Assembly (NCBI GenBank): GCA_965203465.1
Contig: CBDBCR010000001.1
Location: 864,001-928,000 of the forward strand
From: Nitrosopumilaceae archaeon
GTDB lineage: Archaea > Thermoproteota > Nitrososphaeria > Nitrososphaerales > Nitrosopumilaceae
Length of the DNA: 64,000 nt
Direction: 5' to 3'
This document shows positions 23,341 through 61,097 of this stretch, piece by piece; the stretch's first letter is position 1, and the number at the start of each line of letters is the position of its first letter. The notes under the pieces were generated by a model. It saw nothing but the letters and a program-made list of their open reading frames with translations, did no database searches and was not told where the DNA came from. The translations under genes and the position numbers were made by a program.

Positions 23341-23433
23341 CCGAGCCCGCGAAGGACGGAACCGGATTCGCCCGTCTTGGCCGATCCGCGGCCGGAAATC
23401 ATCCGCCCGCCGGCGGGACTTTCGGGTCGACTG
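23341..23433 (+). repeat. Dispersed element copy 1
   Basis: TTGGCCGAT...GGAAATCATCCGCCCGCCGGCGGGACTTTCGGGTCGAC. Confidence 0.85.
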
Positions 23434-23476
23434 TGAACGACGTTTGAGATTTATGCCCCCGTTCGACGGGCAGGCC

Positions 23477-23860
23477 ATGCAGAATGACGAGCCCCCCGAG
23501 TTTGCCAACACGGTGGAGAGCGCCATCAACACCCCGTGGGAGGTAAGCGACAGGAAGGCCAGATCCGCCGAATACTTTGAGGCCTGGAAAAAAGTCGCGG
23601 AGCGAAAGGCGCACTTGATATTCGCCTCTATTCCGCTTTGCGGTCCGACCATACCCGACGAGCTCAGAAAGGAGGCTTCGGATGAGGTACTCAGGGTCAC
23701 TTGGCAGCACGCCTGCAAGTACATGACCGACGAGGAAAAGCTCGCGGCCTGCCGCGTCAAGCGCAAAGAGATCGACGAGTACGCGTGGCCGCTTGCCCAA
23801 AAGGCGGCCGCGGAGCAGTGGAGACGGGTGCTGGACGCCTCTAAACGAAGGGCGCCGTGA
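23477..23860 (+). CDS. Hypothetical protein, paralog of 59771..60142
   Basis: Nearly identical protein to the second copy; TTTATG about 25 nt upstream. Confidence 0.8.
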   Translation: MQNDEPPEFANTVESAINTPWEVSDRKARSAEYFEAWKKVAERKAHLIFASIPLCGPTIPDELRKEASDEVLRVTWQHACKYMTDEEKLAACRVKRKEIDEYAWPLAQKAAAEQWRRVLDASKRRAP

Positions 23861-24019
23861 CCGCGCCGGCCCGAAGCGCCGCGCGCGCAGACGAAGGCGA
23901 GCGGCCCGGATCAGTCGCGTACAACGTCTGGAATTTGCGCGACGGGCCGCATCGCCGCCAAAGCCCGCCGCTCTCCGGCCCGGACGCGTTTTTTCACCCG
24001 CGCCAAGCGTTAGTCTCGG

Positions 24020-24487
24020 TCACGGCAGTACGTCCACAAAGCCGAGGTAGTCTTTCGCCTCAAACTGCTCCGATTTGACGTAGCTGAAACCAAGACGGGA
24101 GCCCGGAACGCCGTCTTCGACTGCGCCAAAGCAGATCCTCGACGCTTCGAACGCTTCGCCGTGTGTCTCGTATTCGTGCACTACGATCACATGGACGGCA
24201 CCCTCGCCTTCCGGACGCGCCATGACCCTGCTTATCCGTTCCGGAAAGTTCAGGCCCGAGACGAAACTTCGGATTTGTGTAATTTCCTCCGACGCGCCGG
24301 CCGACCCGTCCATGAATGAGCGCTGCGTTTTAACCCACGCGTCGAATCCTTTTTTCAGGAGTTTGTCGTTTTGGTCGGCGATCTGCGCCATGGTCGCGTC
24401 TGACAGGTACAGGTATTCCTTGGCCGCCTCGGTATCTTTTGCTGCCTGACGGCGCTTCAAATTCAGACCCGGAGAACCGCGTTCCAT
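24020..24487 (-). CDS. Hypothetical protein, possibly degenerate MNT-like; related to 62005..62373
   Basis: Shared motif V(I/V)VVH...GEA with the 62 kb gene. Confidence 0.55.
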   Translation of the reverse strand: MERGSPGLNLKRRQAAKDTEAAKEYLYLSDATMAQIADQNDKLLKKGFDAWVKTQRSFMDGSAGASEEITQIRSFVSGLNFPERISRVMARPEGEGAVHVIVVHEYETHGEAFEASRICFGAVEDGVPGSRLGFSYVKSEQFEAKDYLGFVDVLP

Positions 24488-24710
24488 TCACGCCACCGCG
24501 CCGCGACCCGGAAGGCTCGCGTCTGCAATCCTGCCCCTTGGCTCGCTCACGTGATCCGGTGCAGGCTTTCTTGTAATAAACATAACTTGGCGGATTCTTC
24601 CCAATTTCGGCGATCTGGGCCCGACCGTACGCCAAGCGTGGGGTTTGGGCGATCGGGTTCTGCGGCGGTTTAGGCGTAGCCTCGTCCCGCAGAAAACGGC
24701 AGACGGGGGA

Positions 24711-24900
24711 TCAAGACAGATTTCCGCAGAAAACCGGCACGGCATCCGGGGCATGCCCGATATCATCGGAGGCCACCATCGCGCCGGGCCGTCTTTGCCA
24801 AGTCCGCAAGGGCGGCTCCCCTCCACTAAGGCGGGGTACACCGGGCGGGCGCTCGTGAAAAACGCCGCGGCCTCCAGGGACGGGATCGGCAGGCTCCGCG
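24711..24900 (-). pseudogene. Relic of a class I SAM methyltransferase C-terminus; second relic at ~49440-49584
   Basis: GAMVASDDI...AVPVFC; ~50 bp nearly identical to 49533-49584. Confidence 0.3.
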
Positions 24901-24993
24901 GCCGGCATATCGGACTGGCCAGCCCGGGACGGGCCGGGACGCTGCGCGCTGCGGCGGCTCGGTTCATGCCTGCGCCCCCGTCCGGACGGCGGC

Positions 24994-25120
24994 GCGCGCG
25001 CCGGCCTGCCCGGGCCGCGCCCGGAACGGAACCGGGCGAGCCCGCCTTTCGGATTCCGCCGTTTTGGTCGATTCGCGATCGGGGATTGTCCGCCCGCCGG
25101 AAAAACTTTCGGGCCAACCG
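24994..25120 (+). repeat. Dispersed element copy 2
   Basis: ...GCCGTTTTGGTCGATTCGCGATCGG...TCCGCCCGCCGGAAAAACTTTCGGGCCAAC. Confidence 0.85.
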
Positions 25121-25129
25121 GTCAGCATG

Positions 25130-26220
25130 TGTTGTCCGAAAAAGAGTATCGCCCCTTGAGTAGGCGTGGAGGGGCAGGTAAGAGTGCGGAATGCACGGCG
25201 CGGGCCGCGTGGAGTGGAAATGGAGGTGGGTGGGTCGCCGGGCGCCCGGGCCGACAGGAATACATTGGGGGGCTCCGGGCGGGGGCACTTGAAACTGAGC
25301 CAGTCGCAGGTGCAATGGATAGTCCGCGAAAAGGCGAGGGGGGAAATGACCAACTCGGAGATAGGCAGGCTCGTGGGGGTCTCTGCAGTGTGGGTCAGAA
25401 AGCTGTATGCCCGGTACCGGCACCAAAAGCCCAGCAGGATCTCTTATCCTGCGCCTTTGGGCAGGCCGGCCGGCAGCCTGCCCGGGCGCAGGGAGCACTC
25501 GGCCGTGCTGACTTCGAGGTACGCCGCGGAGAACGGGGCGGTGCGCCTGGTAGATTACATAGAAGAGAGCACCGGATTACATATACCGCACAACGCCATA
25601 CACAGGATCTTGCGGGACGAGGAACTGGCCGATCGGCAGCACAGGAAGAGCGGGCAGCGCAAGTGGGTCAGGTACGAGCGCAAGTACTCCAACTCCATGT
25701 GGCACACCGACTACAAGCAGCTGGACGACGGTATGTGGTTCATCGCGTACCAGGACGACGCGTCGCGCTTCATAGTGGGGTACGGCGTGTTCAAAGAGGC
25801 GACCGGAAAACACGCCGTCGAAGTCCTAAAAGAGGCCATTTCCAGGCACGGAAAGCCGGCTTCGGTGCTCACCGACCACGGATCCCAGTTTTACGCCAAC
25901 GAAAAAGAGTCGGCCGCCCGGGGCGAGGCGATGTTCGAAAAGGAACTGGCCGCGCTCGGCGTGAGGCACATACTCGCTAGGGTCAACCACCCGCAGACCA
26001 ACGGCAAGCTGGAAAGGTTCCACGGCGAGCTGCAGCGCAGGCTGCCCAACTTCATCGGCGCCTCTGCCGACAGGACCACCCGCGCGACGGGGTCCGGGGG
26101 CCACGTGGGCAGCCCGTTCTATTCGGCCGGGCCCACCGACCCGGTGGCCCGGTTCGTGCGCTGGTACAACCACGACCGCGCGCACATGTCGCTTAACAAG
26201 GGCGAGACGCCGGCGCGGGC
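25130..26220 (+). mobile_element. IS481/IS1202-like element, 3'-truncated; transposase from ~25289
   Basis: TGT left end; rve core WHTD, DDASR, TDHGSQF, PQTNGKLERF; homology to the 38 kb copy stops at ~26220; no right TIR. Confidence 0.85.
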
Positions 26221-26310
26221 GTGTTTACGGTCACCGCGTTCTTGTGGAAGAGCATGGACAACCCTGTCCCCCTCTGCGGGCCGGTCTCGAAAGAGGTCAA
26301 CGTGGTATGA
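26221..26310 (+). pseudogene. 3' relic of a gene with a thaumarchaeal S-layer-like C-terminal domain
   Basis: VFTVTAFLWKSMDNPVPLCGPVSKEVNVV* resembles the TATAFVWESVDNPTALSPPVS tail (from memory). Confidence 0.45.
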
Positions 26311-26423
26311 CGTGCGAGCGGGCGCGGACTTGGTCGCGTCGGCCGGTGCCGGCTGGGCTGGGATTTTGCACGTGTGCGAAATTCCCGCTCCAACTCTACA
26401 AGCGCCCTACACAATTTACAGCC

Positions 26424-27380
26424 ATGCCCAATACGCCGGACGCGCGCAAGGCGGGCGGATGCAGATCCGCGCAAAACACAGAAACTGCATCCGCGATCCC
26501 TCTACCGTCACATCTTTTTAATGGATTCGAGAGAAAGATGCAGGCCAAGCAACTCGGTTTCATAAGCGACCACATCCGCTCGTACGAACTCTTCGAGAGG
26601 ACGATGGGCTTCCAGTATTTCCTCAACGGCAAGATCATCGACGCGTCGAGCCAGATCCGGGAGCCCAGAGACACCTCTGACCAGGCCATGACCGACGACG
26701 CCATTCTCCAGATCTTGGAGCAGAACCTGCTGTATCTGTTTTCCGCCCTCCGCCCCCTGGAACAAGAGTCCATACACGCCCACCGCGCACTGGTGCGCCC
26801 GGTGCTCGAATCCGTGCCCAAGTGCTTCTTCCTCATGAGGCATCCGGAAAGCACCAGGATGTTTCTGTTGGCAGAGAAACGCGACGCGTGGGAGGCGGTC
26901 GGCAAGCACGAAAGCAGGCCCAAGTCCGAGAAATTTTTAGAATCTGGAGCATCTCGGGAAGTTCCAAGGACGCAAGAAATCACGAACGAGGAATTTGCCG
27001 AGTTCAGGAACCGCAAGAATCGCGAACTGAGATCCAAAATCTACGGCACGAAGACGGTAAAATTGCAGGATCGGCTCTATTCGGTGCTGAGCACCAGCTC
27101 CCACTCGAACATACTCAGACACCACCCTTTGGAAGTCCGCCGGGCGGCCAAAGAGCTGTCCTTTAGGATTCTTGCCGAATTGTCTTTTTTCAACCTGTTC
27201 CTGATGGTCAATTCTCAGCACAGGGCATTGGGAGGCTTGGGCCTCATGGAAACGGCAAAACTGTTCACTTTGGATGCGCAGAAAAGACTGCAACCCCATT
27301 CTGAACTCACGTATTTGTATCCAGACAACAAAGAATACGTGAAGAATCTGATTCTAAAACCCCCGCGGCGGAAAAACTGA
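26424..27380 (+). CDS. DUF5677-like (HEPN-related) protein, paralog 1
   Basis: ALVRPVLE...YSVLSTSSH pattern; clear similarity to the 29894 and 44689-47273 genes. Confidence 0.75.
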   Translation: MPNTPDARKAGGCRSAQNTETASAIPLPSHLFNGFERKMQAKQLGFISDHIRSYELFERTMGFQYFLNGKIIDASSQIREPRDTSDQAMTDDAILQILEQNLLYLFSALRPLEQESIHAHRALVRPVLESVPKCFFLMRHPESTRMFLLAEKRDAWEAVGKHESRPKSEKFLESGASREVPRTQEITNEEFAEFRNRKNRELRSKIYGTKTVKLQDRLYSVLSTSSHSNILRHHPLEVRRAAKELSFRILAELSFFNLFLMVNSQHRALGGLGLMETAKLFTLDAQKRLQPHSELTYLYPDNKEYVKNLILKPPRRKN

Positions 27381-27618
27381 CCGACGCCATACTTCGGATA
27401 CGTGTAAAACCAGCTATAGACGAGCGTGCCAGAATGCGGCCATTGGGACGGTCGGCGTGACGGGGCCCGGCTCCCGCCGGAGCAGGCCGGGCGCGAACCG
27501 CACGAACGGGAAGCCGGCCTCTGGGCCTGACGGCCATCGACAAGAACGGGGCTACCTGAGTCGGCCGGGGCCAGCCGCCTGAAGGCTGCCGGCTACCGGG
27601 CCCCGCGCCTTTCAGCCG

Positions 27619-27751
27619 GCGCGCGCCTGCCTGCCCGGGCCGCGCCCATGGCGTAACCGGATTCGCCGTTTTGGATGCCGCCGTTTTGCCCGTTTTGGCC
27701 GATTTACGATCGGAAATCATCCGCCGGTCGGAGGAGCTTTTGGGTTAACCG
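27619..27751 (+). repeat. Dispersed element copy 3
   Basis: GCCGTTTTGCCCGTTTTGGCCGATTTACGATCGGAAATCATCCGCCGGTCGGAGGAGCTTTTGGGTTAAC. Confidence 0.9.
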
Positions 27752-27894
27752 AGATTCGGCTTTGTTCAGTAATTCCGCGATCCGTGCCTGAGCGGAGCCG
27801 TTTTTTGGCCGATCCGGCTACAGCGCAGGCACGAAAATGTGAATTGTCGAACAAAGCTGCGCCAAGTTTAAAACCGCGCAGGCTACCGCCAAGC

Positions 27895-28629
27895 ATGGAT
27901 TCCATCCGGGTGGACGATCTCGTGGTACTGGGCAACGCGGTGCCAGACATCATGAAAGATTCCAGGGTGACCGTCTGCACCGTGGGCTATTCGGAGAGCC
28001 ACGGGCTGATGCGGGTCTATCCGGTGCGGCCCGACGCCAAAATGCTCAGGTGGGACGTCGTGGAGGCGGAGCTTGAAAGAAACCCCAAAGACACGAGGGG
28101 CGAGAGCTGGAAGGTAAAGGGATCAAAGCAGGAATGGGACAAGATGGCCGGCAAAATCCTCCACCACGGAAAGCTGAGCCCAGGCAGGCAGAAGAAACTG
28201 CAGCGCGAACTGCAAGAAAGGTTCGCGGCGGGATGCATACGGGATCTGAACGACGAGAAACGCAGCCTGGGCATCATAAAGCCCACGGTGCTGGGGTACC
28301 GGATGGAAGAGCGCGAGTCATACGACAGCACGATACAGACAAACCTGTTTTCCACAGATCCGTTCAAGACCATCCACAACTACAAAAAGCAGCCGAGGAT
28401 AGAATACGAATGCTCGGACTGCAGGGCGAAAAACCCGCACGATCAGCAAGTGCTGGAATGGGGCATTTACGAGTGGATGAGGAAGAACCCGTCCCAGCCG
28501 GAGCGGGCGTGGGCCAACCTGCACCTTGACGATCCGGGATACGAAAAAAGGTTCCTCGTAGGCAATCTGGCAAAACACAGAACGTCATTCGTGATCGTCA
28601 GTGTATTCAGGAGAAAAATCGGCCTCTAG
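27895..28629 (+). CDS. Uncharacterised protein of a family seen near DUF488/DUF5131
   Basis: VTVCTVG...MRVYPV...DTRGES...SLGIIKP...CSDC...H..QVLEW...FLVGN. Confidence 0.75.
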   Translation: MDSIRVDDLVVLGNAVPDIMKDSRVTVCTVGYSESHGLMRVYPVRPDAKMLRWDVVEAELERNPKDTRGESWKVKGSKQEWDKMAGKILHHGKLSPGRQKKLQRELQERFAAGCIRDLNDEKRSLGIIKPTVLGYRMEERESYDSTIQTNLFSTDPFKTIHNYKKQPRIEYECSDCRAKNPHDQQVLEWGIYEWMRKNPSQPERAWANLHLDDPGYEKRFLVGNLAKHRTSFVIVSVFRRKIGL

Positions 28630-28974
28630 CAGAGACGGGTTCGCGATTATCTCCCTCAGCAGGTGGCGGTGGCAGTGAGCTCCGGCAGGCTCGTAGCACA
28701 GAAACGTCACCGTCGTGCCTCTGGATTCGGAATGCAGATCCCGTATCAGGGACGCCGCGCTCCCGTCCCGCAGCTCGCGCTTGAAGGCGCGGGAAAACTG
28801 CCCCCAGGTCACGTCGTTGTCCTTGTATTTTTTGAGCAGCTGCGCGCTCGGCGCGAGATCCCGAACCCACCTGTCAAAGTGCGTCTTTTTGACGCCCCGG
28901 GGGTAGAACCTGGTCACCAGTATCCGGATTCCGTCCTTACGCTCTCTGGGCTTGTAGATACTCTTTGTCCTCAC
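28585..28974 (-). CDS. DUF488 (YeaO-like) protein
   Basis: DGIRILVTRFYPRGVKK, LAPSAQL, FLCYE...CHRHLL. Confidence 0.88.
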   Translation of the reverse strand: MRTKSIYKPRERKDGIRILVTRFYPRGVKKTHFDRWVRDLAPSAQLLKKYKDNDVTWGQFSRAFKRELRDGSAASLIRDLHSESRGTTVTFLCYEPAGAHCHRHLLREIIANPSLLEADFSPEYTDDHE

Positions 28975-29268
28975 CGTGGCCCGCGCGGAGACCGCCGTGA
29001 CCGCGCGCAGGCAGGCAGCGGCAGCTTTGGGGCGCCTCGGCTTGCAGGGCAACTCGGCACGCCTCCAGGGGCCACGGTATAAGTTGAGATAGTGAAGCAG
29101 AATACACAAAGTGTCAATTTTCTGCCCCTGCTCGGCGTTCATCAAGGCGCCTTTTGTAGCGGGCCCCGCCCGGCCGTTGGCGGCAAGAGATGCCGATCGC
29201 CGGGTTCATAGCTGTATATAATACAAAAAAGCAGAAATTGTTAATAACGGGCGAGGTTTTGCCGATGC

Positions 29269-29664
29269 GTGAATTGTGCGAAAAAAGCGTGGGACGAAGC
29301 GGGCCCCGAATGGCGCAAGAAGATGCTGGAGAGCTCGCGCGCGAGAAACCGACCAGATCTAAAGTACCTGGCGTTTGACCGTCTGCCCGAATCGATCAGG
29401 GGGATTCTGGTCAGGGCGCGCCTCGGAGAGGACGTGAAGTCAAAACCCGGGTGCAAGGACACAAAGACGCAGGTTCTGGACCGTATAAACTGCGCCGCCA
29501 TGGCAGAAGAGTGCGGGCGCGCCATGCTGAAAGGCGGGAAAGAGAGCCGGGGTAGCCGGACGGCGGGCGATCCAAACGGCCAAATGCCGATCTGGACTGC
29601 GGCCGACACCTTTCTGAAAACCGCGGCAGAGAACCAAATGCGCGATCCGCCGTGGATGTCGTAG
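29269..29664 (+). CDS. Hypothetical protein
   Basis: 131 aa ORF downstream of an AT-rich TATA tract at 29215-29245. Confidence 0.5.
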   Translation: MNCAKKAWDEAGPEWRKKMLESSRARNRPDLKYLAFDRLPESIRGILVRARLGEDVKSKPGCKDTKTQVLDRINCAAMAEECGRAMLKGGKESRGSRTAGDPNGQMPIWTAADTFLKTAAENQMRDPPWMS

Positions 29665-29893
29665 ATCGGCAAGAGGCAAGACGAGAGCGCGCCCGTGCCT
29701 CGTTTCTCCCGGCACTCGCGCGCGCCCCGGGCCGGGCCAAGCCGGGGACGTGCCTTCCGGCTGGCGCCGCCTGCGGCTGTCCGGCTACCTGCACGTGTTC
29801 GGCCGGCCGATGATCCGCCCCGCGAATTTGCAACGGTGCCGTACTCCCAAGTCTCCGAAAGGTATATTACTCTAGAAGGAACGGCGGCGGCAG

Positions 29894-30880
29894 ATGGACG
29901 AGAATGAGCGCGCCGCGGCCGAGCGGGTCGCCGGAGCGGCAGAGGCGGGCGGCGCGCCGGCCCGCGCCGAGCCGCGCCCGGACGGACGCGCGGCCCCCTC
30001 CCCGCACGCCGTCTTCGGCGGGTTTGAAAAATTGCGGCAGAGACGCCAGCGGGAGTTCATAGCGCGACACATCGGGGCGTACGATCTTTTCGAGCGCCTG
30101 ATGGAGTTCCAGCACTACGTTCACGGAGAGGTTTCGAAAAAGCACTCAGAATCTGCGAGCCGCCGGACGGGCAGGGCCACGGACTACATATTGACGGAGA
30201 TCTTTCTTTTGGGCGTGCTGAACCAGAACATCGATTACGTATTTTCGGCGTGGCGCGCCCTAGAACACGGCCTCCCCCACATCTGCGGGAGCCTTATGCG
30301 CAACGTGGTCGAATCCGTCCCCAAATCGTTCTATCTTTTGGCCAACCCGCACGCCGTCAAAAAATTCAGGTTGGGTGAGATGTATCTGACATACAAGTCT
30401 GAAAATCCGCCGGCAAAGAACAGCTATCTGGCCACCGAGTTTCTCAAATCTCAAAAGGCTCAAAGAGCCCTCGACGGAGAGCAGATCAAGTCAGAAGCGT
30501 TTCTAGAGTTTTTCTACGGACACAAGCACCTAGACATCTGCGAAAAGATCTACGACAAAGATGCCGTTCAGCGTCAAAGAAAGCTCTATTCCGTGCTCAG
30601 TTCTAGTTCCCACGCGTCCATGGATAGGTTCGCGACTCCCTCGCGCGACCCTGTATTGGATGGGAGTTTTGCAAAGATGCTCACCGATCTGTCTTTTTTC
30701 AGCCTGCTTCTGACGGCCAACTCCCAGCACCGGTTGCTGCGCGACATGGGGCTGGTACGGGACGTCGAGCGGTTCGTCAACGCGGCTTGGCGCGACTTGG
30801 GCCGCCCGGATCCGCTCACCGACATGTATCCGGACGAGCCCGAATACCGGGACTGCCTGCCGCTAAAGCTCCCGCCGTGA
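29894..30880 (+). CDS. DUF5677-like protein, paralog 2
   Basis: SLMRNVVE...YSVLSSSSH; TATATTA upstream. Confidence 0.8.
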   Translation: MDENERAAAERVAGAAEAGGAPARAEPRPDGRAAPSPHAVFGGFEKLRQRRQREFIARHIGAYDLFERLMEFQHYVHGEVSKKHSESASRRTGRATDYILTEIFLLGVLNQNIDYVFSAWRALEHGLPHICGSLMRNVVESVPKSFYLLANPHAVKKFRLGEMYLTYKSENPPAKNSYLATEFLKSQKAQRALDGEQIKSEAFLEFFYGHKHLDICEKIYDKDAVQRQRKLYSVLSSSSHASMDRFATPSRDPVLDGSFAKMLTDLSFFSLLLTANSQHRLLRDMGLVRDVERFVNAAWRDLGRPDPLTDMYPDEPEYRDCLPLKLPP

Positions 30881-31018
30881 TTTCCGCGTAGCCCGGGCCG
30901 GAGCCGGCGCGCGGCCAGCCTGCATACCTGCAAAGACGCTCGCGGGCCGTCCAGACGCGGATCGCCGGTGCGGCCCCAGATCGCAAAGGCACATTACGCC
31001 CTGACGAAAGGCGTTCGC

Positions 31019-31990
31019 GTGCAACACGAAGTGAAAAGTTCGTTGGCAGGCCGCCCGCACGTCGTCATATTGGGCGCTGGGGCGAGCCGCGCGGCGTGCC
31101 CGGAAGGCGACAAGAACGGGGAAAAACTCCCCCTGATGAAAGACCTCGCAGAGGTCGTAGGGGTCAAGGACATGCTCCGAGGGTGGGGGATCGACTGCGG
31201 GAGGAACTTCGAGTACATCTTCAGCGAGCTGTACGAAAAGGGCGAGGCGGGCAAGATAAAAGAGTTGCAACGCAGGGTGGAATCTTACTTTGTCGGGCTG
31301 GAGCTTCCCGACGAGCCTGCGCTCTACGATCTATTGGTGCTCTCGCTCGGAAAAAACGACATCATCGTGACGTTCAACTGGGATCCGCTGCTGGCTATGG
31401 CGATGGAACGGAACGTGCAGTCGGGCCTGGCCATGCCACAAGAGGTGTATCCGCACGGCAACGTGAGGATCGGGTACTGCGAGCGGGACAAAAAGTACGA
31501 CAGCGCCGGGCGTCGGTGAACGACGTGCGGAGAGCCGTACAAAAACACCCCGCGGCTCTACCCGATCAGGCAGAAAGACTACGACAAGGAGCCTTTCATC
31601 CGGGCCCAGTGGGCTACCGCGCAGCGGGGGCTGAGGCAGGCGCCCGTGCTGACCGTCTTTGGGTACAGCGCCCCGAAAACGGACGTCGCGGCTGTCAAGC
31701 TCGTGCGGGACGCGTGGAAGAACAACAAACTGCGCGAGATAGCGGAGGTCGAATTCATAGTCGGCCCGGATGCTGTACCCGAGGAGGTGGAAAAGGCGTG
31801 GGAACCCATCATAGGCACGAACCACTACCGGGTACTCGAGCGTTTCTCCGAATCCTCGATAGCGCACTATCCGAGAAGGACATGCGAGGCGTACTACGAG
31901 AGGTCCGTGGCCGGAAGGCCCGTCAAGACAAACCCGGTACCGGACAATCTGGGGCTTGAGCGGTTGTGGGAGTGGATGCGGCGCCTCTAA
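31019..31990 (+). pseudogene. SIR2-like protein with in-frame TGA at 31517-31519
   Basis: VILGAGAS, TFNWD, PHGN, VFGYSAPKTD; both halves are in the same frame. Confidence 0.8.
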
Positions 31991-47612: not shown

Positions 47613-47779
47613 AAAGAAGAAACGCCCGGCCTACAGGCACGAACCTCGACATTTGGCGCGACATTGGTAAACACGAGGGCGACGGGCCGCGCCCGCGCGG
47701 ATGCGGCAGGCCAGCCGATGCCGGCCCCGTCAGGGCGGCGGCACTGGCCACATCCCACCCGAGATGCGCGCGGAGCAGG

Positions 47780-47870
47780 CGCGCCCGCCTTCCGGACGCC
47801 GTTTCGGCCCGCTTGGCCGCGTTAGTGATCGGGAACCGCCCTCCAATCGGCCGACATTCTGGGTTAACCG
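47780..47870 (+). repeat. Dispersed element copy 4 (diverged)
   Basis: GCCGTTTCGGCCCGCTTGGCCG...GATCGGGAACC...TTCTGGGTTAACCG. Confidence 0.75.
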
Positions 47871-48780: not shown

Positions 48781-49202
48781 CCCGCCGGCCGGGCGTCGCC
48801 GGAAAGCCCGCCTGCGGGCGCGGTTTTTGACAGAAGGCGTCTCGGCCGCGGGCAGCGCAAGCCCGTCCGAACAACGGCTGGCCGACTGCGCCCGCGCGTT
48901 TCCATAGAGGCGAAACGGACTGGTCGCAAAGACGCGCCAGAGGCGGCCTCAAGATCTGCCAAGCGCCGCCTGCCAGATACCAGCAGGGCGCTCCATGATT
49001 GCCCGATCCGCCGGGTGCGGCCAGGCTGCCGAACTCGGTTCGGGTGTCGGCCGGTCCTGCGATGCCCGCCGCCATAAACCGCTGGCCCTTCGGTCGCTTT
49101 GGTCAGGCTGCGCGCGCGGGTCTTTGTCACACGGCGGGGCCGCGGCCGGCCCGCCATCCAGCCCATCGCAACACAGACGGCCAAGATACAGGACGGTACA
49201 AT

Positions 49203-49338
49203 CGGTTAACCCAAAAGTTCCGCCGGCGGGCTCAGTTTCTGATCGCGGACGCTGTCGGGCGGGGCGAAACGGCGGCAACGCCAAAAACTCGGGCTCGTCC
49301 GGTCCCGTTCCAGGCGCGGACCGAGTAGGCCGGCGCGC
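49203..49338 (-). repeat. Dispersed element copy 5
   Basis: Reverse complement reads ...GCCGCCGTTTCG...GCGATCAGAAACTGAGCCCGCCGGCGGAACTTTTGGGTTAACCG. Confidence 0.85.
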
Positions 49339-49589
49339 AGCGCCGCCGGCCGGATCCGGGCGCAGGCAGGAACCGGGCTACGGGGGGCGCGGCGCCGGCG
49401 CTGCCCGCCGCCGGGAACGCGCCGCCCGCCCAGCGCGGGAATGCCGGATATCGCCAAAGACCGCCATCGCGCCGCCGTCCAGGCAAAGGCTGAAAGCCCG
49501 GCTCCCGTTCGAGCGCGAGGCGCGCATGGCGTGCGCTCGCGAAAAGCGCCGCGGCCTCCAGGGACGGGATCGGCAGGCTACGCGGGGGC

Positions 49590-52765: not shown

Positions 52766-52928
52766 CCGGGGCCCCCAGGTTTCGGAGCCAAGAGCCGGTC
52801 TAGGGCATGCGTTCCAAAGCGGCCGGCGGGCGCCGCGCTTGGGACGGACCGGGCCCCGGGCGCGCATTCCGGGATGCCGGTGCCCGGAAGCGGAACGGTA
52901 AAATACGGGGATGCGACAGGGCTGTACC

Positions 52929-55900
52929 ATGTCCACGCTTGGCGATTCGGGGATCGTGCATCCGGATCCTGAGGAAGAGGATTACTTTAGGGACGGCGCG
53001 CTCAAGGATCAATCCGGCGACGAGTTTTTTCACCGGCACTACGCGGAGGTGCTGTCCGACATCCTGCGCAAATCCAAAACACCGCTGAACATAGGCCTGT
53101 ACGGAAAATGGGGGGTAGGCAAGTCGTCCATAGCGCACATGCTCCAAGACGAAATAAAAAATGGCGATACATTGAGGGGCTTTGAGTACGCGGAGGTGGA
53201 CGCATGGGGGCTGTCCCCAAAGGCCCTGCCACAGGGGCTGCTCGAGGCGCTCAACTCGCAACTTGACTCCCCGTACAAGCCCGGAGACCTCGAGGACATG
53301 CTGTACAACGAGCGCCAAGTCCAGCACACGCGGCTACACGGCCTAAAGACTTGGTGGTGGCTAGCACTTGCGGTCATGGGTGCGGCGGGGTTCGCTGTCT
53401 TTTCAGTAGATCCGACGATGGCGAACCTGCCCGTATTCGGTGGATTTGCTGCCGTTCTGCTCGGACTGTTGGCAAAGCTGATCTTTGGCACGTCACGCAA
53501 GGTAATTCCGCGCGCCGCATCTCCGCTGCAGTTCAGCAAGATCTACGACAAGATTGTAGAGAGATACGGGGTCAAGAAAGGCGCGGGCAAGAAACTGGTG
53601 GTCGTAATAGACAACCTCGACAGGTGCGAAAACGCCGTGGTCGTGGAGCTGCTGGGGCTGATCCAGACGTTCATGGTAAAGGACAACTGCGTCAACATAC
53701 TGGCCTGCGACGACGAGGCACTGGTCTCCCACCTGAAAAGATCCGAAACGGTGAGCACGGAAAGGGACGGCAACGAGTTTCTCAGCAAGTTCTTCCAAGT
53801 CACGCTCCGCATATCGTCGTTTCTGGGCGAGAGCCTCAGGTCGTATGCAAGGACGCAGATCGTCAAGCGCAGCGTCGAGTTCGATCAGTTCGCGCTGACA
53901 ATTCTGCTTTCCGGCGCCATAGACAACCCCCGAAAGATCAACCAGTTCCTCAACATAGCCGTGGCGCTGTACCGGCTGGCCGAATTGAGGGAGCAGTCCG
54001 GGATGCTCCAGGACGGCCTGATCACCGGCAACACCAACCTGCTGCTCAAGTCGGTCGTGCTGAGGCACGAATGGCCCGAATTCTGCAAGGCCGTAGAAGC
54101 AGAGCCGGATCTGTACGAAGACGGGGAGAGGCAGACAAAGTGGAGCGAAGAGATGGTACGCCAGGAAAAGATGACCGATGCCGAGATCGCGCGTCTTTGG
54201 GAGTTTATGGACGCCACGCGGATTCCGGGGGCAGTCAGCATAGTCCCGTTCCTGCGCATGAGCCAAGCGCCGCACATGACGCAGCTGGGCATATCGGCGT
54301 TCGAGGACGCGTTTTCCCGCTCGAGTCTCGAGGCAGTAGGCATGTTTGAAAATCTGGATTCTGGTGCCCAGGAGGAGTACTTGGACAAAGTCGGCGAAAT
54401 TTTGAAAGAATCGGCCTCGGAGTCGGATCCCAACATGCCCGCGTTGTCAAGCAACGTCGTAATGCTGGCAAAGCTCACCAAAGCGGCGTCCGACGCATCG
54501 GTTCGCGCACGCACGGCCACCATGCTCGGACAGTGCCTCTCGGACAGACTGCTGGAAAAAGCGCGCGAGATCGTGGGCAGAATCGGCCTGGAGCCGATCA
54601 TCCAGATGCAGGTGCCCATGCGGAACCGCATCTGCGGACGCCTAGTGCTGGACGCGTTCCAAGCCGACCCGCCAGATCGGGCCGTGTTAGGCCTGTTTTC
54701 CGAGAACCGCGCCATCATGGAGCCCAGATTGGTGGATCTCATGGGCGAAATGGCAGCCGACAAGCTCAACACTTCCGGTCTGTGGGACGCATCTTTCATC
54801 TCGGAATGCCTGAAATACCGCCGGAAAGGCGCACCGATGTCGAAGCTGGTCTCGCACATCATATCCAGCGCCACCTTCGGCGTCTCGCCCCAGACTGCCG
54901 GATACGACGGGCTGTGCGCCAAGCTGACCGAATCGCTGTCTGCGAGCGAGTCCGGAGAACTCCGTTCCAGAATCTGCGATCTGGTAGAACAGTGCGGCAA
55001 AAGCGGCGCGCCTATGCCCGAACCTCTCCTCGATTACGTCAAGAACGAGGCTGACGAAAAGATCTGCAAGGCGCTCGGCGTACTGGTGCGGGCCAGCCCC
55101 GACCAAGCGCAGAACGCCGAGATCCTGGAGATCGTGGCGCAGAAAAGCCAGGACGGCGCAAAGCATCTTGAATCGGCAAGCTGCGTGTTCGCATCATACA
55201 TGCAGGCAGCCGACGCGCAAAGGGTGACCGAGCTTGTTGACAACCAACAATATCGGCGATTCTTGACGACAAAGACAGCGATCGACTCTATGCTAGAGTT
55301 GTGTAGCAACACGAAATACCAAAACTTGGCCGTGATCAATTTCCTGCTCACGCACACGCCCGACAGCCTGAAAGAACACGTGGGGACTGTCCTGTCAGAT
55401 GCAATCGTGTACAAAGACGCGTCCGAATACGGTCTGCTTTTGAATGCCGCGGGACAACACATTACAGAATTTGACTCAGGCTTGATCGCCGCGATCATGA
55501 AAGCGTGCATGATCAAAGCTGACAGAACCGAGGATGCTGGCAGGCACGCCATGTACGTGGAAGCCGCAAAGATCGGGCACGAAAAGCACGCGCCCGAGAT
55601 CGTGGCGCGTGCGGAGACGCTGATCCTATCTGCCGACGAAAGGGAACGCGGCGAGGGGTTCCAGCTGTTCGACGCGTTGAACGCAAACAGGGCCGAGCCG
55701 CTCGGAATCTGGCAGTCCATAAACGCCGCCGGCGGCGCGATTGCAGGCGAACAGGACGCCGTCGCGGATCACCTGGAGTTTCTGCGCAATTACGGCAGGG
55801 GGATCGCAGCGTCGGAGGACGCCGCGGTGGGCCTGCTGACTGCGTGCTTGGATGGCCCTTCGCGAGCCCGCATAAACGGCGGATTCAAGTCGGCCAAGCA

Positions 55901-56120
55901 CACAAACCCCCCCAAGGACATTGCAGACGCGGCCATGGAGTGCATAGAGGGGGCGGGCGACGCGGTGCAGGTGCGCATGATCGAGCCGATGGTCGCTTTT
56001 GTGCAAGAAGGGCCGTCAGAAGTGGCCAAAAACCGCTGCAGGCAGATACTGCAGAGGCACGAGGCGCTACTGAACGCCAAACAGAAACACGGGCTGAAGC
56101 AGGCCTTTGCGGACTTTTAA
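52929..56120 (+). CDS. KAP-family P-loop NTPase with TM hairpin and long helical C-terminus
   Basis: IGLYGKWGVGKSS, DAWG, two TM helices, VVIDNLDRC, FLSKFFQ, NPRKINQFLN. Confidence 0.92.
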   Translation: MSTLGDSGIVHPDPEEEDYFRDGALKDQSGDEFFHRHYAEVLSDILRKSKTPLNIGLYGKWGVGKSSIAHMLQDEIKNGDTLRGFEYAEVDAWGLSPKALPQGLLEALNSQLDSPYKPGDLEDMLYNERQVQHTRLHGLKTWWWLALAVMGAAGFAVFSVDPTMANLPVFGGFAAVLLGLLAKLIFGTSRKVIPRAASPLQFSKIYDKIVERYGVKKGAGKKLVVVIDNLDRCENAVVVELLGLIQTFMVKDNCVNILACDDEALVSHLKRSETVSTERDGNEFLSKFFQVTLRISSFLGESLRSYARTQIVKRSVEFDQFALTILLSGAIDNPRKINQFLNIAVALYRLAELREQSGMLQDGLITGNTNLLLKSVVLRHEWPEFCKAVEAEPDLYEDGERQTKWSEEMVRQEKMTDAEIARLWEFMDATRIPGAVSIVPFLRMSQAPHMTQLGISAFEDAFSRSSLEAVGMFENLDSGAQEEYLDKVGEILKESASESDPNMPALSSNVVMLAKLTKAASDASVRARTATMLGQCLSDRLLEKAREIVGRIGLEPIIQMQVPMRNRICGRLVLDAFQADPPDRAVLGLFSENRAIMEPRLVDLMGEMAADKLNTSGLWDASFISECLKYRRKGAPMSKLVSHIISSATFGVSPQTAGYDGLCAKLTESLSASESGELRSRICDLVEQCGKSGAPMPEPLLDYVKNEADEKICKALGVLVRASPDQAQNAEILEIVAQKSQDGAKHLESASCVFASYMQAADAQRVTELVDNQQYRRFLTTKTAIDSMLELCSNTKYQNLAVINFLLTHTPDSLKEHVGTVLSDAIVYKDASEYGLLLNAAGQHITEFDSGLIAAIMKACMIKADRTEDAGRHAMYVEAAKIGHEKHAPEIVARAETLILSADERERGEGFQLFDALNANRAEPLGIWQSINAAGGAIAGEQDAVADHLEFLRNYGRGIAASEDAAVGLLTACLDGPSRARINGGFKSAKHTNPPKDIADAAMECIEGAGDAVQVRMIEPMVAFVQEGPSEVAKNRCRQILQRHEALLNAKQKHGLKQAFADF

Positions 56121-57066: not shown

Positions 57067-57182
57067 CGGCGAGTGCGTCCGGCAAGTTGCGCTGCGCTCG
57101 AAGCGGCACATTTTCAGCACCTGACGCTACAGGTCCGGTTGCGAAAACCCCGGTTTCCCGGATTTGCGGCCTTTGGATCGCG

Positions 57183-58007: not shown

Positions 58008-58164
58008 CCGGCGCGGGCAGGCGCCGGGCCGCCGCCAATTCGGCGCGTTGATTCGGCATCTTCCGGCCCGATCCGCCGATCGCCTGCAGCGCATCCGGTT
58101 CCGGGTCCTTCCTGCCACACCTCGCCAGCGGCTCGCGGCAAGCGCACCCTGCCAGCCTCTGCGG

Positions 58165-58238
58165 CCGCCGTTTCGGACCGTTTGGCCGATTTGCGATCGG
58201 AGGTCATCCTCCCGCCGGAGGAACTTTTGGGTTGACTG
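58165..58238 (+). repeat. Dispersed element copy 6
   Basis: CCGTTTGGCCGATTTGCGATCGGAGGTCATCCTCCCGCCGGAGGAACTTTTGGGTTGAC. Confidence 0.9.
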
Positions 58239-58294
58239 ATTCTGCCTGAAAGCTACAAATAGATGCCCATGTCGGCGGCATCAAGGGGCTGGGC

Positions 58295-58495: not shown

Positions 58496-58749
58496 GCGCC
58501 GGTTCGCCAAACAGGTATTGCCCATTGGCGCCGTTGCGGCCGCTGTTAAATCTGGCGTAGCGGCCGGTTCCGGCATCTGTCCGGCCGCGCTGGGCACACG
58601 CGTCCGTCTAAGCCGTCCAGGCTGGAAGCAGATCCGGCGCGAGGTGGTGCTGACCCTGGAAAAGGACTAGCCGGCGTTCGCGGCGCGGGCCCGGCCGCCC
58701 GGGGCGGGCGCATGCAGGAGCCGGCGGCCTTTTCGGGCGCCCGGCCGAG

Positions 58750-58861
58750 GCCGCGCCCGGGACGGGATCGGGCGAGCCCGCCTTTTGGGCGCCGCCGTTC
58801 TGCCCGGTTTGGCATCCGATCGGAAACCGTCCGCCCGCCGGAGAGACTTTTGGGTTGACTG
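58750..58861 (+). repeat. Dispersed element copy 7
   Basis: GGGCGAGCCCGCCTTTTGG...CGATCGGAAACCGTCCGCCCGCCGGAGAGACTTTTGGGTTGAC. Confidence 0.9.
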
Positions 58862-58924
58862 GCGTCGTGTATTGACTGGCGTGGAAAAAAGCAAATATAC
58901 AACACCGCCGGGTTCATACACGAG

Positions 58925-59197
58925 ATGCCATTCACGCACGCTATGGATCGGCGGGGGGTCGAAATCGTAGCGGAAATAGCCAGAATGACGAACCGGAACT
59001 ACGGAGGCTGGCATGTCGGAATCACCTCCGATCCAGAACGGCGCAGGGGCGAACGCGGCGATCCCGCGGCTTGGCACGCGTGGGACGCGCAGTACGAGGG
59101 AGCCGCCCGCGAGATCGAAAGGCACATGCTCGGTTTAGGCATGCGTGAAGGCGGGGGCGGCGGGGACGACCCCACATACGTCTACATTTGGCGGTAA
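58925..59197 (+). CDS. Minimal GIY-YIG-like protein
   Basis: WHVGITSDPERR...AREIERHML...YVYIW. Confidence 0.65.
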   Translation: MPFTHAMDRRGVEIVAEIARMTNRNYGGWHVGITSDPERRRGERGDPAAWHAWDAQYEGAAREIERHMLGLGMREGGGGGDDPTYVYIWR

Positions 59198-59213
59198 ATC
59201 TGACGGTTTCCGG

Positions 59214-59620
59214 CTAGCGCGGAGCGCGGCGTCCAGAGCTCCGCCCCAGTTCCGCGATCACGCCGGCGTTCCGTCTGAGGGCCTTGCGGTACGTCTTCCA
59301 CAGGTCGGGCCGCCTCTCGCGCGGCACGTCGTCGGGGCAGTACGTCTGGAGTATCCGCTTGGCCGCCCCCAGGGCCCCGTCTATATTTTCCCGTTCCAGC
59401 CGAGCCGGCTTTAGGATGTGCGCCTGCCTCCCCCTGATCTCGTTCATGATGCTTTCCGTGCGGTGGCGGTTGCGCGTAAGAAAGCCGTCCAGCCGCTCTT
59501 CGACACCCCGTCGTCCGTCTCCATGTCCCGCACGTTCAGCATGATTTCCGACACGATGCAGTCCAGTTCCCCTACGTTCGCGTAGATGACGGACCGGTGC
59601 CCCGCGTCTGCCTCGTTCCT
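59214..59620 (-). pseudogene. Frameshifted hypothetical gene
   Basis: Coding-like segments in two frames joined near 59507. Confidence 0.35.
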
Positions 59621-59770
59621 GCGCCGCCTGTCACGGTCCGGGCCGCCTGCGTAGGCTGAGCGCAGGCGGGCGCGGCCGGCAGCAGGCCTCGCCGGGCGGC
59701 CGGCCTAGGCCTAACCCGCGCCTGTGCGGATAACGTTTGAGATTTATACCCTCAAATCTAAGGGTAGGCC

Positions 59771-60142
59771 ATGCAGAAAGCCGAGCCCACCGAGTTTGCC
59801 AACACGGTGGAGAGCGTCATCAACACTCCGTGGGAGGTAAGCGACAGGAAGGCCAGATCCGCCGAATACTTTGAGGCATGGAAAAAAGTCGCGGAGCAAA
59901 GGGCCCGCTTGATATTCCCTTCTGTCCCGCTCAGCGGCCCGACCATACCGGGCGAGCGCAGAGCAGAGATAGCCGACGAGGTCCTCAGGGTCACTTGGCA
60001 GCACGCCTGCAGGTACATGACCGACGAGGAAAAGCTCGCGGCCTGCCGCGTCAAGCGCAAAGAGATCGAAGAGTACGCGTGGCCGCTTGCCCAAAAGGCG
60101 GCCGCGGAGCATTGGAGACGGGTGCTGGCCGCCTCTAAATGA
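59771..60142 (+). CDS. Hypothetical protein, paralog of 23477..23860
   Basis: Near-identical DNA including upstream ACGTTTGAGATTTAT promoter region. Confidence 0.8.
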   Translation: MQKAEPTEFANTVESVINTPWEVSDRKARSAEYFEAWKKVAEQRARLIFPSVPLSGPTIPGERRAEIADEVLRVTWQHACRYMTDEEKLAACRVKRKEIEEYAWPLAQKAAAEHWRRVLAASK

Positions 60143-60905
60143 CGCGCACCGTTATCACGTCCTCCAGCGATTCAAGCATCGAGTAATGCCGAAGTGGATC
60201 GGGCGACGCGTCCAGCGCGCTCCTCTTCACGCTGATGAATGCGCCGTCGGGCACGCGGGTGCCGTCGCGCAGCCTGCACTCGGTCTCGCCCGCGTAGGCC
60301 AGGTGCTTGCGGCTGTCTATCTTTTCGTCCACCGACGGAACCGACCAAGGCACGGCCGTATACGCCGCAGGCCGGAGCGCGCGGCGGATCTCGCCGTCGA
60401 CGGGCACCGTGACCGACGCCGGGCGCCCGCCAGAGTACACGTTGAACCACATGCTGAACGGCTTGTATCTGCGGCTCCCGCCGCCCGCCTCCGTCCTGCT
60501 TTTGAACGTGCCGTCCAGGTAGCTTGGCAGCTCGGCCAAGTCCATCCAGCGGTATATCGTTCCGGCCCTGGAGACCTCGTGGGCGAGGGCTTCGGTGAAC
60601 TCGCGCGCCCGGCTCTCCATGTACAGCGTGTGGCGGTACGCGAGCAGATCGTGAATTTTGAGCCAGTCAAGGTATATCTTGTCTGCGAGGCCCCAGTCCT
60701 TGGCACCGGCCGCCCGGGCGTACGCCTTGGATTCCGGGCTTCCCTCGCCCAAGACCGCGTAGGGGTCCGTTTCCAGCATATTGGCCATGTAGACCATGGT
60801 GCTGGCTGCGTGGACAAGTCCATATTCGATCAGCTTGGCAAACTCGCGGCGCGCCCGATCCCGCACGCTGCGATCCAGCACGTGGCCCGGGCATATTGAC
60901 GACAT
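60135..60905 (-). CDS. Hypothetical protein with a possible R-S-E ADP-ribosyltransferase domain
   Basis: IYRWM...EL, PFS, GETECR in ART-like order. Confidence 0.55.
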   Translation of the reverse strand: MSSICPGHVLDRSVRDRARREFAKLIEYGLVHAASTMVYMANMLETDPYAVLGEGSPESKAYARAAGAKDWGLADKIYLDWLKIHDLLAYRHTLYMESRAREFTEALAHEVSRAGTIYRWMDLAELPSYLDGTFKSRTEAGGGSRRYKPFSMWFNVYSGGRPASVTVPVDGEIRRALRPAAYTAVPWSVPSVDEKIDSRKHLAYAGETECRLRDGTRVPDGAFISVKRSALDASPDPLRHYSMLESLEDVITVRVI

Positions 60906-61039
60906 GTCTCCGGGCCGCTCAGGCTAGGTTAAAAGCCAATCGAACATTTTACCGTACAGTACCGTTGATTTATTGTATAATACGGCAATTTGCTGCATTG
61001 CGGGTCGATGGACCGGCGCCCGGGGCAGCTTTCAACTTC

Positions 61040-61097
61040 CGGTCAACCGAAAAGTCGCGCCGGCGGGCAGTCGGTTTTCGATCGCAGATTCGGCGGC
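61040..61097 (-). repeat. Dispersed element copy 8 (3' part only)
   Basis: Reverse complement reads TGCGATCGAAAACCGACTGCCCGCCGGCGCGACTTTTCGGTTGACCG. Confidence 0.8.

What the first reader, a model, noticed from the sequence alone, without database searches (positions are those of the whole stretch)
23341..61097. Undescribed dispersed hairpin element that always points into accessory genes: candidate gene-cassette/recombination or guide-RNA system
Seen: at least 8 copies (ends at 23431+, 25118+, 27749+, 47868+, 49205-, 58236+, 58859+, 61042-), all inside the island and none noticed in the first 17 kb. Full copies are about 135 bp. The 3' consensus is GCCGTTTTGGCCGATTTGCGATCGGAAATCATCCGCCCGCCGGAGGAACTTTTGGGTTRACYG. 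It has a CCGAT/ATCGG hairpin and a subterminal stem with a conserved CGCC loop that covaries (CCGCC/GGCGG at 23403; CCTCC/GGAGG at 58208). Similarity ends abruptly after TTRAC(YG). Six copies end about 45-145 bp before the start of a co-oriented accessory gene, one faces an IS and one faces a probable gene relic. Inference, three options: (a) an att-like site of an integron-like cassette system; (b) an IS200/IS605-type end or orphan omegaRNA-like scaffold followed by a variable guide, since those ends are a hairpin plus a TTGAC-like motif; (c) a mobile promoter/leader. No cognate recombinase, TnpA or TnpB is in this window.
Basis: partly seen in the sequence, partly recalled or inferred. Interest (0 to 1): 0.85.

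Follow-up and report, generated by a model that had tools for sequence, protein, structure and literature searches.

The report
Insertion-sequence ends parked beside archaeal promoters
The repeated "hairpin element" is the right-hand end of an ordinary archaeal jumping gene (ISH3 family), mostly as dead remnants, but these and two unrelated mobile elements sit at one fixed spot about 45 bases before gene starts, which hints at a promoter-linked insertion hot spot.

Summary
All 8 copies are real. They are not an RNA, an att site or an IS200/IS605 end. They are the last 80-215 bp of a 1510-bp ISH3-family insertion sequence. Its one intact copy lies outside the window (G000:C1:996577-998086): a 391-aa DDE transposase, 19-bp terminal inverted repeats starting CAGT, and 5-bp target duplications.

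The genome is an ammonia-oxidising archaeon. It holds 2 long copies, 5 internally deleted two-ended copies, about 13 solo right ends and 1 solo left end. All 8 window copies are solo right ends without target duplications. The claimed covariation is not supported.

The surprise is position. The element end lies 43-47 nt before a co-oriented start codon in 11 of 19 right ends, with a TATA-like box 14-24 nt after the end. Related ISs in four other genomes show the same AT-rich box. So do two unrelated repeat families of this genome, with 7-bp and 9-bp duplications.

I read this as a host-level insertion slot just upstream of BRE/TATA. Whether it reflects targeting or selection is open.

The parts
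23316..23433 (+). Solo right end 1 of the ISH3-family IS. It starts right after the stop codon of the upstream epimerase-like ORF at 23334.
   Evidence: nhmmer with the right-end profile, C1:887316-887433. Terminus GGGTCGACTG. No target duplication.
23434..23479 (+). Flank with a TATA-like box (best AT-rich 8-mer at +14) and ATG at 23477, 43 nt after the element end. In frame with ORF 23444-23860.
24904..25120 (+). Solo right end 2, the longest in the window (about 215 bp, IS positions about 1285-1510). GTG of an rve-family transposase ORF (25166-26521) begins 45 nt after it.
27618..27751 (+). Solo right end 3.
27757..27857 (.). Unrelated ~101-bp MITE ('MITE2', inverted ends GCTTTGTTC) inserted 5 nt after right end 3. 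Without it the next ATG (27895) would lie about 43 nt from the end.
   Evidence: 13 or more copies genome-wide at 79-96% identity. 7-bp target duplications read from the flanks.
47703..47870 (+). Solo right end 4. TATA-like box at about +11 to +23. GTG of the AbiJ-like gene (47917-48780) begins 46 nt after the end.
49203..49394 (-). Solo right end 5 on the minus strand. An ATG at 49157 begins 45 nt after the end, in frame with ORF 48744-49184 (no Pfam match).
58161..58238 (+). Solo right end 6, only about 78 bp left. Best AT-rich 8-mer at +16. The start of the downstream ORF is uncertain (ATG at +25 or +57).
58734..58861 (+). Solo right end 7.
58855..58927 (+). Flank of end 7. An 11-nt stretch that includes the last bases of the element recurs 18 nt later (18-nt tandem duplication). 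The ATG of a 90-aa ORF (58925-59197) is at +64, which is +46 without the duplication.
61040..61140 (-). Solo right end 8 on the minus strand, the most decayed. The next called co-oriented gene (60135-60905) is 134 nt away. This copy does not fit the 45-nt rule.

Best explanation
The element is the right terminal part of an ISH3-family insertion sequence of an ammonia-oxidising archaeon. It consists of the 3' non-coding region plus the terminal inverted repeat ending ...GGGTTRACYG.

Shown: the intact IS is 1510 bp and encodes a 391-aa DDE transposase. It has 19-bp terminal inverted repeats and makes 5-bp target duplications. Internally deleted two-ended copies of 430-620 bp also exist, and at least one of them transposed, because it carries a clean duplication.

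Inferred: the eight window copies are immobile relics, solo right ends that lost the transposase gene and the left end. They cluster in a mobile-element and defence island.

Shown: the ends sit at a fixed place, with the last base about 45 nt before a leaderless start codon. This is 4-5 nt upstream of the BRE and about 15 nt upstream of the TATA box. The same slot is occupied by two unrelated transposable families of this genome and by related ISs in other genomes.

Inferred: the slot just upstream of the core promoter is a preferred or uniquely tolerated insertion site. It splits transcription units without breaking either one.

Not explained: right ends face the promoter far more often than left ends. 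This may reflect retention of the T-run-rich right end as a spacer or insulator.
For: Identity.
- Blast of the region upstream of a long copy, and then of the 1510-bp unit, shows that every copy is colinear with the 3' end of one IS.
- The ORF L001:1811-2986(-) hits Pfam DDE_Tnp_1 at 1e-9. Its best NCBIfam hit is ISH3 at 4e-36.
- The inverted repeats are read.
- Target duplications are GAAGC (C1 copy) and GAATC (C3:964540-965070). In relative G010 they are CTCTG and GTATG around a 1725-bp IS with the same inverted repeat.
- The published ISH3 features match: 1225-1500 bp, CRGT ends, 4-5 bp duplications, a Y-2-R-3-E-3-R motif, and archaeal hosts (passages of PMC2266710). The motif reads YAKRWGIETGYR in the ORF.

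Host.
- Two TBP genes and an archaeal AmoA.
- Genome-wide AT peak at -30 to -23 and an A-rich BRE at -35 to -32 from start codons, so transcripts are mostly leaderless.

Position.
- A co-oriented gene lies 43-47 nt from the end in 8 of 22 hits by my gene caller.
- A start codon begins at +44 to +48 in 11 of 19 recognisable right ends.
- Expectations are 1.7% for uniform intergenic insertion, 15% given that the end lies 41-100 nt upstream of a gene, and 18% for any start codon by composition.
- The rpl11 promoter is native.

Relatives.
- The inverted-repeat motif is found in 31 of 401 genomes of the order.
- 29 of 47 distinct flanks have an AT-rich box starting at +11 to +17, against a mean of 30% in control ranges (p 6e-6).

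Other families of G000.
- AT box: MITE2 10 of 23 ends and IS-B 10 of 19 ends, against 8% at random intergenic sites.
- Starts at 41-48 nt, pooled over the three families: 22 of 30.
Against: - The ISH3 NCBIfam score (124.7 bits) is below that model's curated cut-off of 225.
- Only 2 of 7 two-ended copies in G000 have a clean target duplication, with one more at 4 of 5.
- The 5' limits of the solo ends are not random. They all lie after the transposase stop, and 8 of about 16 cluster at profile positions 144-170 of 308. Simple random decay does not predict this.
- Solo right ends outnumber solo left ends about 13 to 1, although the inverted repeats are symmetric and both ends face TATA boxes in the relatives. 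This is unexplained.
- Several copies break the 45-nt rule: 61040-, C1:703112, 796693, 809118, and C3:965069, which has a clean duplication but no TATA box after its right end.
- Gene starts come from my own crude caller and from reading flanks. There are no transcript data.
- In the AT-rich relatives the enrichment is modest, and one control range reached 22 of 47.
- No empty site was found.
Confidence: 0.85

Rival explanations
1. Selection only. The transposases insert at random, and only insertions in the narrow gap between the upstream gene (with its 3' end signals) and the BRE of the next gene survive in this compact genome. On this view the 45-nt regularity says nothing about targeting.
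For: Three unrelated families with 5-, 7- and 9-bp duplications share the slot, which suggests a host-side cause rather than one transposase. The G000 copies are old, at 75-96% identity. The distribution has a sharp lower bound near 41 nt, just outside the BRE. Median upstream spacers are short, 72 nt.
Against: Given actual spacer lengths, only 15% of positions 41-100 nt upstream fall at 41-48, yet 22 of 30 ends do. Several elements have 68-1500 nt of apparently non-coding DNA on their other side. Very young copies in relatives already sit next to an AT box: G010 at 99.8% identity and G019 with 29 ends at contig breaks. There is no conserved sequence at -41 to -46.
Confidence: 0.3
2. Exapted module. 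The ~150-bp right-end fragment is kept because it now works for the host. It could act as a terminator or insulator between transcription units, or as a binding site that wires the downstream promoters into one regulon.
For: Solo right ends outnumber solo left ends about 13 to 1. Their 5' limits cluster. The last ~55 nt stay conserved even in the most decayed copies. The right end carries a mean of 2.3 runs of four or more T per 110 nt on the sense strand and almost no A runs.
Against: T runs after stop codons are only weakly enriched genome-wide, 23% against 18% for A runs, so T-run termination is not shown for this organism. There is no covariation. The subterminal sequence is not shared with the related IS of G010. 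The downstream genes are a mixed lot: rpl11, AbiJ, an rve transposase and unknowns.
Confidence: 0.2
3. Structured or guide RNA (omega-RNA or bridge-RNA-like), with the variable flank acting as the guide.
For: Two palindromes are conserved in sequence. The 232-nt 3' region folds somewhat better than shuffles, z -2.39. The non-coding end is unusually long for an IS.
Against: No covariation. No Rfam match at gathering level or at E<=1. The cognate enzyme is a DDE transposase with inverted repeats and target duplications, which needs no guide. The 'variable guide' is a BRE/TATA promoter plus a start codon.
Confidence: 0.03
4. An att-like site of an integron-like cassette system.
For: The copies bracket accessory genes. 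Low-depth contigs join copy 2 to copy 3 and lack the 2.6 kb between them (table 5c), so the copies can act as substrates for homologous recombination.
Against: The copies are fragments of an IS that has its own transposase. Similarity ends at a transposon terminus with target duplications. The spacing to gene starts is shared with unrelated transposons. I did not search for an integron integrase.
Confidence: 0.02

Closest known systems
ISH3 family of archaeal insertion sequences (as defined in PMC2266710, passages read)
   Same: Size, CRGT termini (here CAGT), 5-bp target duplications, a DDE transposase with Y-2-R-3-E-3-R in place of YREK, and an archaeal host.
   Different: The host is a Nitrosopumilaceae-like ammonia oxidiser; a 2019 survey of 21 thaumarchaeal genomes found ISH3 in one species only (PMC6563490, passages). 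It has a 230-nt structured 3' non-coding end, many solo right ends, and a fixed position before TATA boxes. The ISH3 papers I read by term search do not discuss that position: the term 'promoter' occurs 0 times in PMC13343696 and PMC6563490. PMC2266710 was searched for 'ISH3' only.
MITEs and internally deleted IS derivatives, e.g. ISH2 and the MITEHsal elements of Halobacterium (PMC7002104, passages)
   Same: Five 430-620-bp copies keep both inverted repeats and lack the transposase gene. One has a clean target duplication.
   Different: The eight window copies have only one end and no duplication, so they are relics rather than MITEs.
Promoter- or pre-initiation-complex-directed integration of eukaryotic retroelements (Ty3 at Pol III starts, Tf1 at Pol II promoters). 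Recalled, not checked in any call.
   Same: Insertion at a fixed short distance from a core promoter that leaves the gene intact (a 'safe haven').
   Different: Here the elements are DDE DNA transposons in an archaeon. No protein contact is shown. Three unrelated families share the slot, and selection alone is not excluded.
IS200/IS605 ends with omega RNA, and IS110/IS1111 bridge or seek RNAs (PMC11208160 and PMC11187229, seen only in the search listing)
   Same: A long non-coding IS end with hairpins.
   Different: This element has terminal inverted repeats, target duplications, a DDE enzyme, no covariation and no RNA-family match.

Membership tests
ISH3 family IS | Length 1225-1500 bp | tested here: met
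   1510 bp between the inverted repeats, at the upper edge of the range. The G010 relative is 1725 bp.
ISH3 family IS | Conserved terminal bases CRGT | tested here: met
   Both ends read CAGTTAACCC... inward.
ISH3 family IS | Target duplication of 4-5 bp | tested here: met
   GAAGC and GAATC in G000. CTCTG and GTATG in G010. Only 2 of 7 two-ended G000 copies are clean.
ISH3 family IS | DDE transposase with Y-(2)-R-(3)-E-(3)-R instead of YREK | tested here: met
   YAKRWGIETGYR in the 391-aa ORF. Pfam DDE_Tnp_1 1e-9.
ISH3 family IS | NCBIfam NF033541 curated cut-off (225 bits) | tested here: not met
   Best hit of all the models, but 124.7 bits. I read this as a divergent member.
IS200/IS605 (with TnpB/omega RNA) | Hairpin ends without inverted repeats, no target duplication, Y1 TnpA and/or TnpB | tested here: not met
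   Inverted repeats, 5-bp duplications and a DDE enzyme.
Structured RNA family | Base pairs kept through compensatory changes, or a match to a curated model | tested here: not met
   305 of 500 shuffles pair as well as the real alignment. No Rfam match.
Integron attC / cassette array | Adjacent IntI tyrosine recombinase with attI, and cassettes each ending in an attC | not tested
   No integrase search was run. The copies are fully explained as IS fragments.
MITE | Both terminal inverted repeats plus a target duplication, and no transposase | tested here: not met
   For the 8 window copies there is no left repeat within 4 mismatches and no duplication. The criteria are met by C3:964540-965070 outside the window.

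The most novel reading that the evidence does not exclude
In these ammonia-oxidising archaea the DNA just upstream of the BRE/TATA core promoter, about 41-46 nt before leaderless start codons, is an active integration hot spot set by the host. The cause would be DNA bent or held by TBP/TFB, or a chromatin-free edge. The slot captures at least three unrelated DDE transposon families at single-helix-turn precision. This would be an archaeal counterpart of Ty3/Tf1-type promoter targeting. The T-run-rich right-end relics would then be kept as insulators between transcription units.
Probability: 0.4. Interest if true: 0.8.

Novelty: new member of a known kind. Interest (0 to 1): 0.55.

Why it matters
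As an object, the element is ordinary: ends and relics of an ISH3-family IS in a lineage where that family is barely described. It needs no new system.

What may matter is where it sits. Three unrelated transposable families in one genome, and related ISs in four other genomes, pile up about 15 nt upstream of TATA boxes.

If this is targeting, it would be a prokaryotic case of promoter-architecture-directed transposition. It could be tested with purified TBP/TFB and a transposase. It would also explain how IS-rich but very compact archaeal genomes tolerate their load.

If it is selection, it gives a sharp, sequence-independent map of where an archaeal transcription unit begins. In either case IS ends could serve as markers for promoters in uncultured archaea.

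Tried and rejected
No earlier findings were seen.
- **Nucleotide search of the whole IS in 40 relatives** found only a conserved ~130-bp piece of the transposase gene in G002, G003, G004 and G010, and no copy of the right end.
- **Weak matches of IS positions 1255-1420 at about 23 other loci** are GC-rich chance hits, many inside genes. One of them (C1:775576-775694) is a true fragment.
- **Target duplications for solo ends:** the 5-mer after each of 13 solo ends was sought within 420 nt upstream. It was found for 2 of the 13, neither at a plausible boundary.
- **Empty site:** the rpl11 neighbourhood differs in relatives, where spt5 lies directly upstream. A 701-nt flank of a G334 copy matched only 3 of 61 genomes of its genus, itself included, with no orthologous site.
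- **RNA evidence:** no RNA holder was listed, so nothing can be said about expression.
- **Read laying** used contigs only. Parts without cover are not interpreted.
- **T-run terminator idea:** the genome-wide signal is weak.
- **Literature:** the five searches and the term searches in four papers turned up no report of TATA-proximal IS insertion in archaea. Subscription journals and ISfinder were not searchable.
- **My early guess** that the host was a Methanomassiliicoccales methanogen was wrong.
- **** used counts read by eye (10 of 21). The counts to rely on are those. In one search I left out two distances (56 and 63) and corrected this.

Full report
**Observation.** The eight stated copies align over about 100-130 nt, and similarity stops after ...GGGTTRACYG. 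A profile of these copies finds 25 hits in the 2.26-Mb, 4-contig genome (window = C1:864001-928000). Eight are in the window, all between 23.3 and 61.1 kb. So the repeat and its clustering are real: 8 of 22 hits of 38 bits or more lie in 1.7% of the genome.

**What it is.** Extending the alignment upstream showed that some copies share much more sequence, including the 3' end of an ORF. Blast of that region, and then of a 1510-bp unit (C1:996577-998086, minus strand), showed that every copy is colinear with the 3' end of one insertion sequence.
- The unit encodes a 391-aa protein with a DDE_Tnp_1 domain (1e-9). Its best NCBIfam hit is the ISH3 transposase model, at 4e-36 and 124.7 bits, below the 225-bit cut-off.
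- It carries 19-bp terminal inverted repeats beginning CAGTTAACCC.
- It is flanked by a 5-bp duplication, GAAGC. A 531-bp internally deleted copy (C3:964540-965070) is flanked by GAATC.
- A 1725-bp IS with the same inverted repeat in relative G010 has two 99.8%-identical copies, flanked by CTCTG and GTATG.

These features, plus the motif YAKRWGIETGYR, match the published definition of the ISH3 family: CRGT ends, 4-5 bp duplications, Y-2-R-3-E-3-R, archaeal hosts (PMC2266710, passages).

**Census in this genome.**
- One intact IS.
- One 1452-bp copy at 79% identity whose ORF appears frameshifted.
- Five two-ended deletion derivatives of 430-620 bp.
- One solo left end.
- About 13 solo right ends, including all 8 in the window.

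The window copies have no left repeat nearby and no target duplication. They are relics, not MITEs.

**Host.** The genome has two TBP genes and an archaeal AmoA, so it is an ammonia-oxidising thaumarchaeon. Upstream of 844 called genes, AT content peaks at -30 to -23, with an A-rich BRE at -35 to -32. Most mRNAs should therefore be leaderless. There is no conserved sequence at -41 to -46.

**RNA and att readings.**
- The two palindromes show no covariation.
- Rfam gives only a tRNA in the window and nothing for the right end at E<=1.
- The 232-nt 3' region folds with z -2.39.
- I found no support for a guide RNA or an att site.

**The positional regularity.**
- My gene caller puts a co-oriented start 43-47 nt after the end in 8 of 22 hits.
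- Scanning 19 recognisable right ends, 11 have a start codon beginning at +44 to +48. The best AT-rich 8-mer lies at +10 to +18 in 14 of the 19.
- Expected values are 1.7% under uniform intergenic insertion (p 2e-9 for 8 of 22) and 18% for a chance start codon (p 1e-4).
- Three outliers are explained by later events. A 101-bp unrelated MITE sits 5 nt after end 3. An 18-nt tandem duplication follows end 7, after which a 90-aa ORF starts at +64. The start I first missed after end 2 is a GTG at +46.
- Copy 8 (61040-), C1:703112, 796693, 809118 and C3:965069 do not fit.
- The promoter beside the intact IS belongs to rpl11. It is present without the IS in five relatives, so the IS does not bring the promoter.

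**Relatives.** The 16-nt end motif, with up to 1 mismatch, occurs in 31 of 401 genomes of the order, against sparse hits for a reversed control. Multiple copies occur in G010, G019 (29 ends), G334 and G394. Of 47 distinct flanks from these four genomes, 29 have an AT-rich box starting at +11 to +17. Control ranges give 11-22 of 47, mean 30% (p 6e-6). If each insertion has one promoter-side flank, this is what near-universal TATA-proximal insertion would give in AT-rich genomes. In the relatives either end can face the box.

**Control that changed my reading.** Two unrelated families of G000 show the same geometry.
- MITE2: 101 bp, 7-bp duplications. It has the AT box in 10 of 23 ends, and a start at 41-48 nt in 5 of the 7 ends that have one within 41-100 nt.
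- IS-B: 1.28 kb, a different inverted repeat, a 9-bp duplication. The figures are 10 of 19 and 6 of 9.
- Random intergenic sites show the box in 8.0%.
- From real spacer lengths, P(41-48 | 41-100) is 0.153.
- With the ISH3-like ends (11 of 14), the pooled count is 22 of 30 (p 2e-12).

The slot is therefore a property of the host's promoters, not of one transposase.

**Mechanism.**
- Shown: what the element is, its ends, its duplications and its position.
- Inferred: the transposase cuts at the CAGT termini and pastes with a 5-bp stagger. Deletion derivatives are moved in trans.
- Open: whether the slot reflects targeting (bent or factor-bound DNA at the upstream edge of the TBP/TFB complex) or survival of only those insertions that split two transcription units cleanly.
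- I lean to targeting, at about 0.4-0.5. The peak is far tighter than spacer lengths allow, many elements have long non-coding DNA on the other side, and very young copies already sit there.
- The excess of right over left ends at promoters in G000 is unexplained: about 13 to 1 among solo ends, and right ends in 6 of 7 two-ended copies, against 2-3 of 6 left ends. The right end is rich in sense-strand T runs, but T-run termination is not demonstrated for this organism.

**Island and population.**
- The region is full of mobile and defence-type genes: two rve transposases, an IS110-family element, IS66 and DDE_Tnp_4 transposases, AbiJ, a KAP NTPase, and a 1371-aa SLFN/AlbA_2-HEAT protein.
- Contigs of public runs include low-depth joints between copy 2 and copy 3 that lack the 2.6 kb between them. 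The copies can therefore serve as homologous recombination substrates (table 5c).
- No RNA run was available.

**Verdict.** The finding is real but ordinary in kind. It is a new member of the ISH3 family, seen mostly as solo right ends. The interesting residue is the promoter-proximal slot shared by unrelated elements.

Noticed in passing
window 34049-35474 (-): IS110-family element (DEDD_Tnp_IS110 + Transposase_20, ORF 34255-35466) inserted in an IS66-family transposase gene (33205-34083 and 35492-36109). Contigs of all four laid runs join 34048 to 35475, so the form without this element exists in public data.
   Followed up: partly
window 27757-27857; 13 or more copies in G000 (e.g. C1:458464-458563, C3:885169-885268): A ~101-bp MITE with inverted ends GCTTTGTTC and 7-bp target duplications. 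It also sits with a TATA-like box 13-15 nt after its end and gene starts 42-48 nt away. A variant contig in run X4 joins 27857 to 31270, exactly at its end.
   Followed up: partly
G000:C3:963258-964533 and about 8 further copies (e.g. C3:47471-48743, C3:130986-132257, C4:66856-68122): A 1.28-kb IS ('IS-B') with a 21-bp inverted repeat and a 9-bp target duplication. 10 of 19 ends have an AT box at +11 to +18, and 6 have a co-oriented gene 41-46 nt away. Its transposase family was not determined.
   Followed up: partly
window 22924: Contigs of runs X1, X4 and X5 lack one base here (X3 lacks one at 22926). The epimerase/dehydratase-like gene that reads in two frames (22395... and 22954-23334) is probably split by an assembly indel, not a real frameshift.
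   Followed up: partly
G000:C3:31464-32083: A 620-bp two-ended copy has a start codon 45 nt from both ends (ATG on the right, TTG on the left) and no target duplication. It looks like a recombinant between two copies, or an insertion between divergent promoters.
   Followed up: no
window 25043-25049 joined to 27677-27683: Low-depth contigs (X1 depth 5.8, X3 depth 2.8) join right-end copy 2 to copy 3, with 14-24 unmatched letters between. The variant lacks the rve transposase and a DUF5677 gene.
   Followed up: no
window 39334-43449, 47917-48780, 52911-56120: Defence-type genes in the island: a 1371-aa protein with SLFN/AlbA_2 and HEAT repeats, an AbiJ-like protein (AbiJ_NTD4 3e-26), and a 1069-aa KAP-family P-loop NTPase.
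   Followed up: no
G000:C1:678000-720000 and 796000-810000: Further weak or decayed right-end copies cluster here (e.g. 678614, 685593, 692709, 703112, 718337, 796693, 809118). This suggests other IS-rich regions on the same contig.
   Followed up: no
loci L026-L030 against G000: Same-genus relatives have much lower G+C around rpl11, and spt5 lies directly upstream of rpl11. In G000 a different ORF and the IS lie there. The genus as sampled spans 1.3-4.3 Mb.
   Followed up: no
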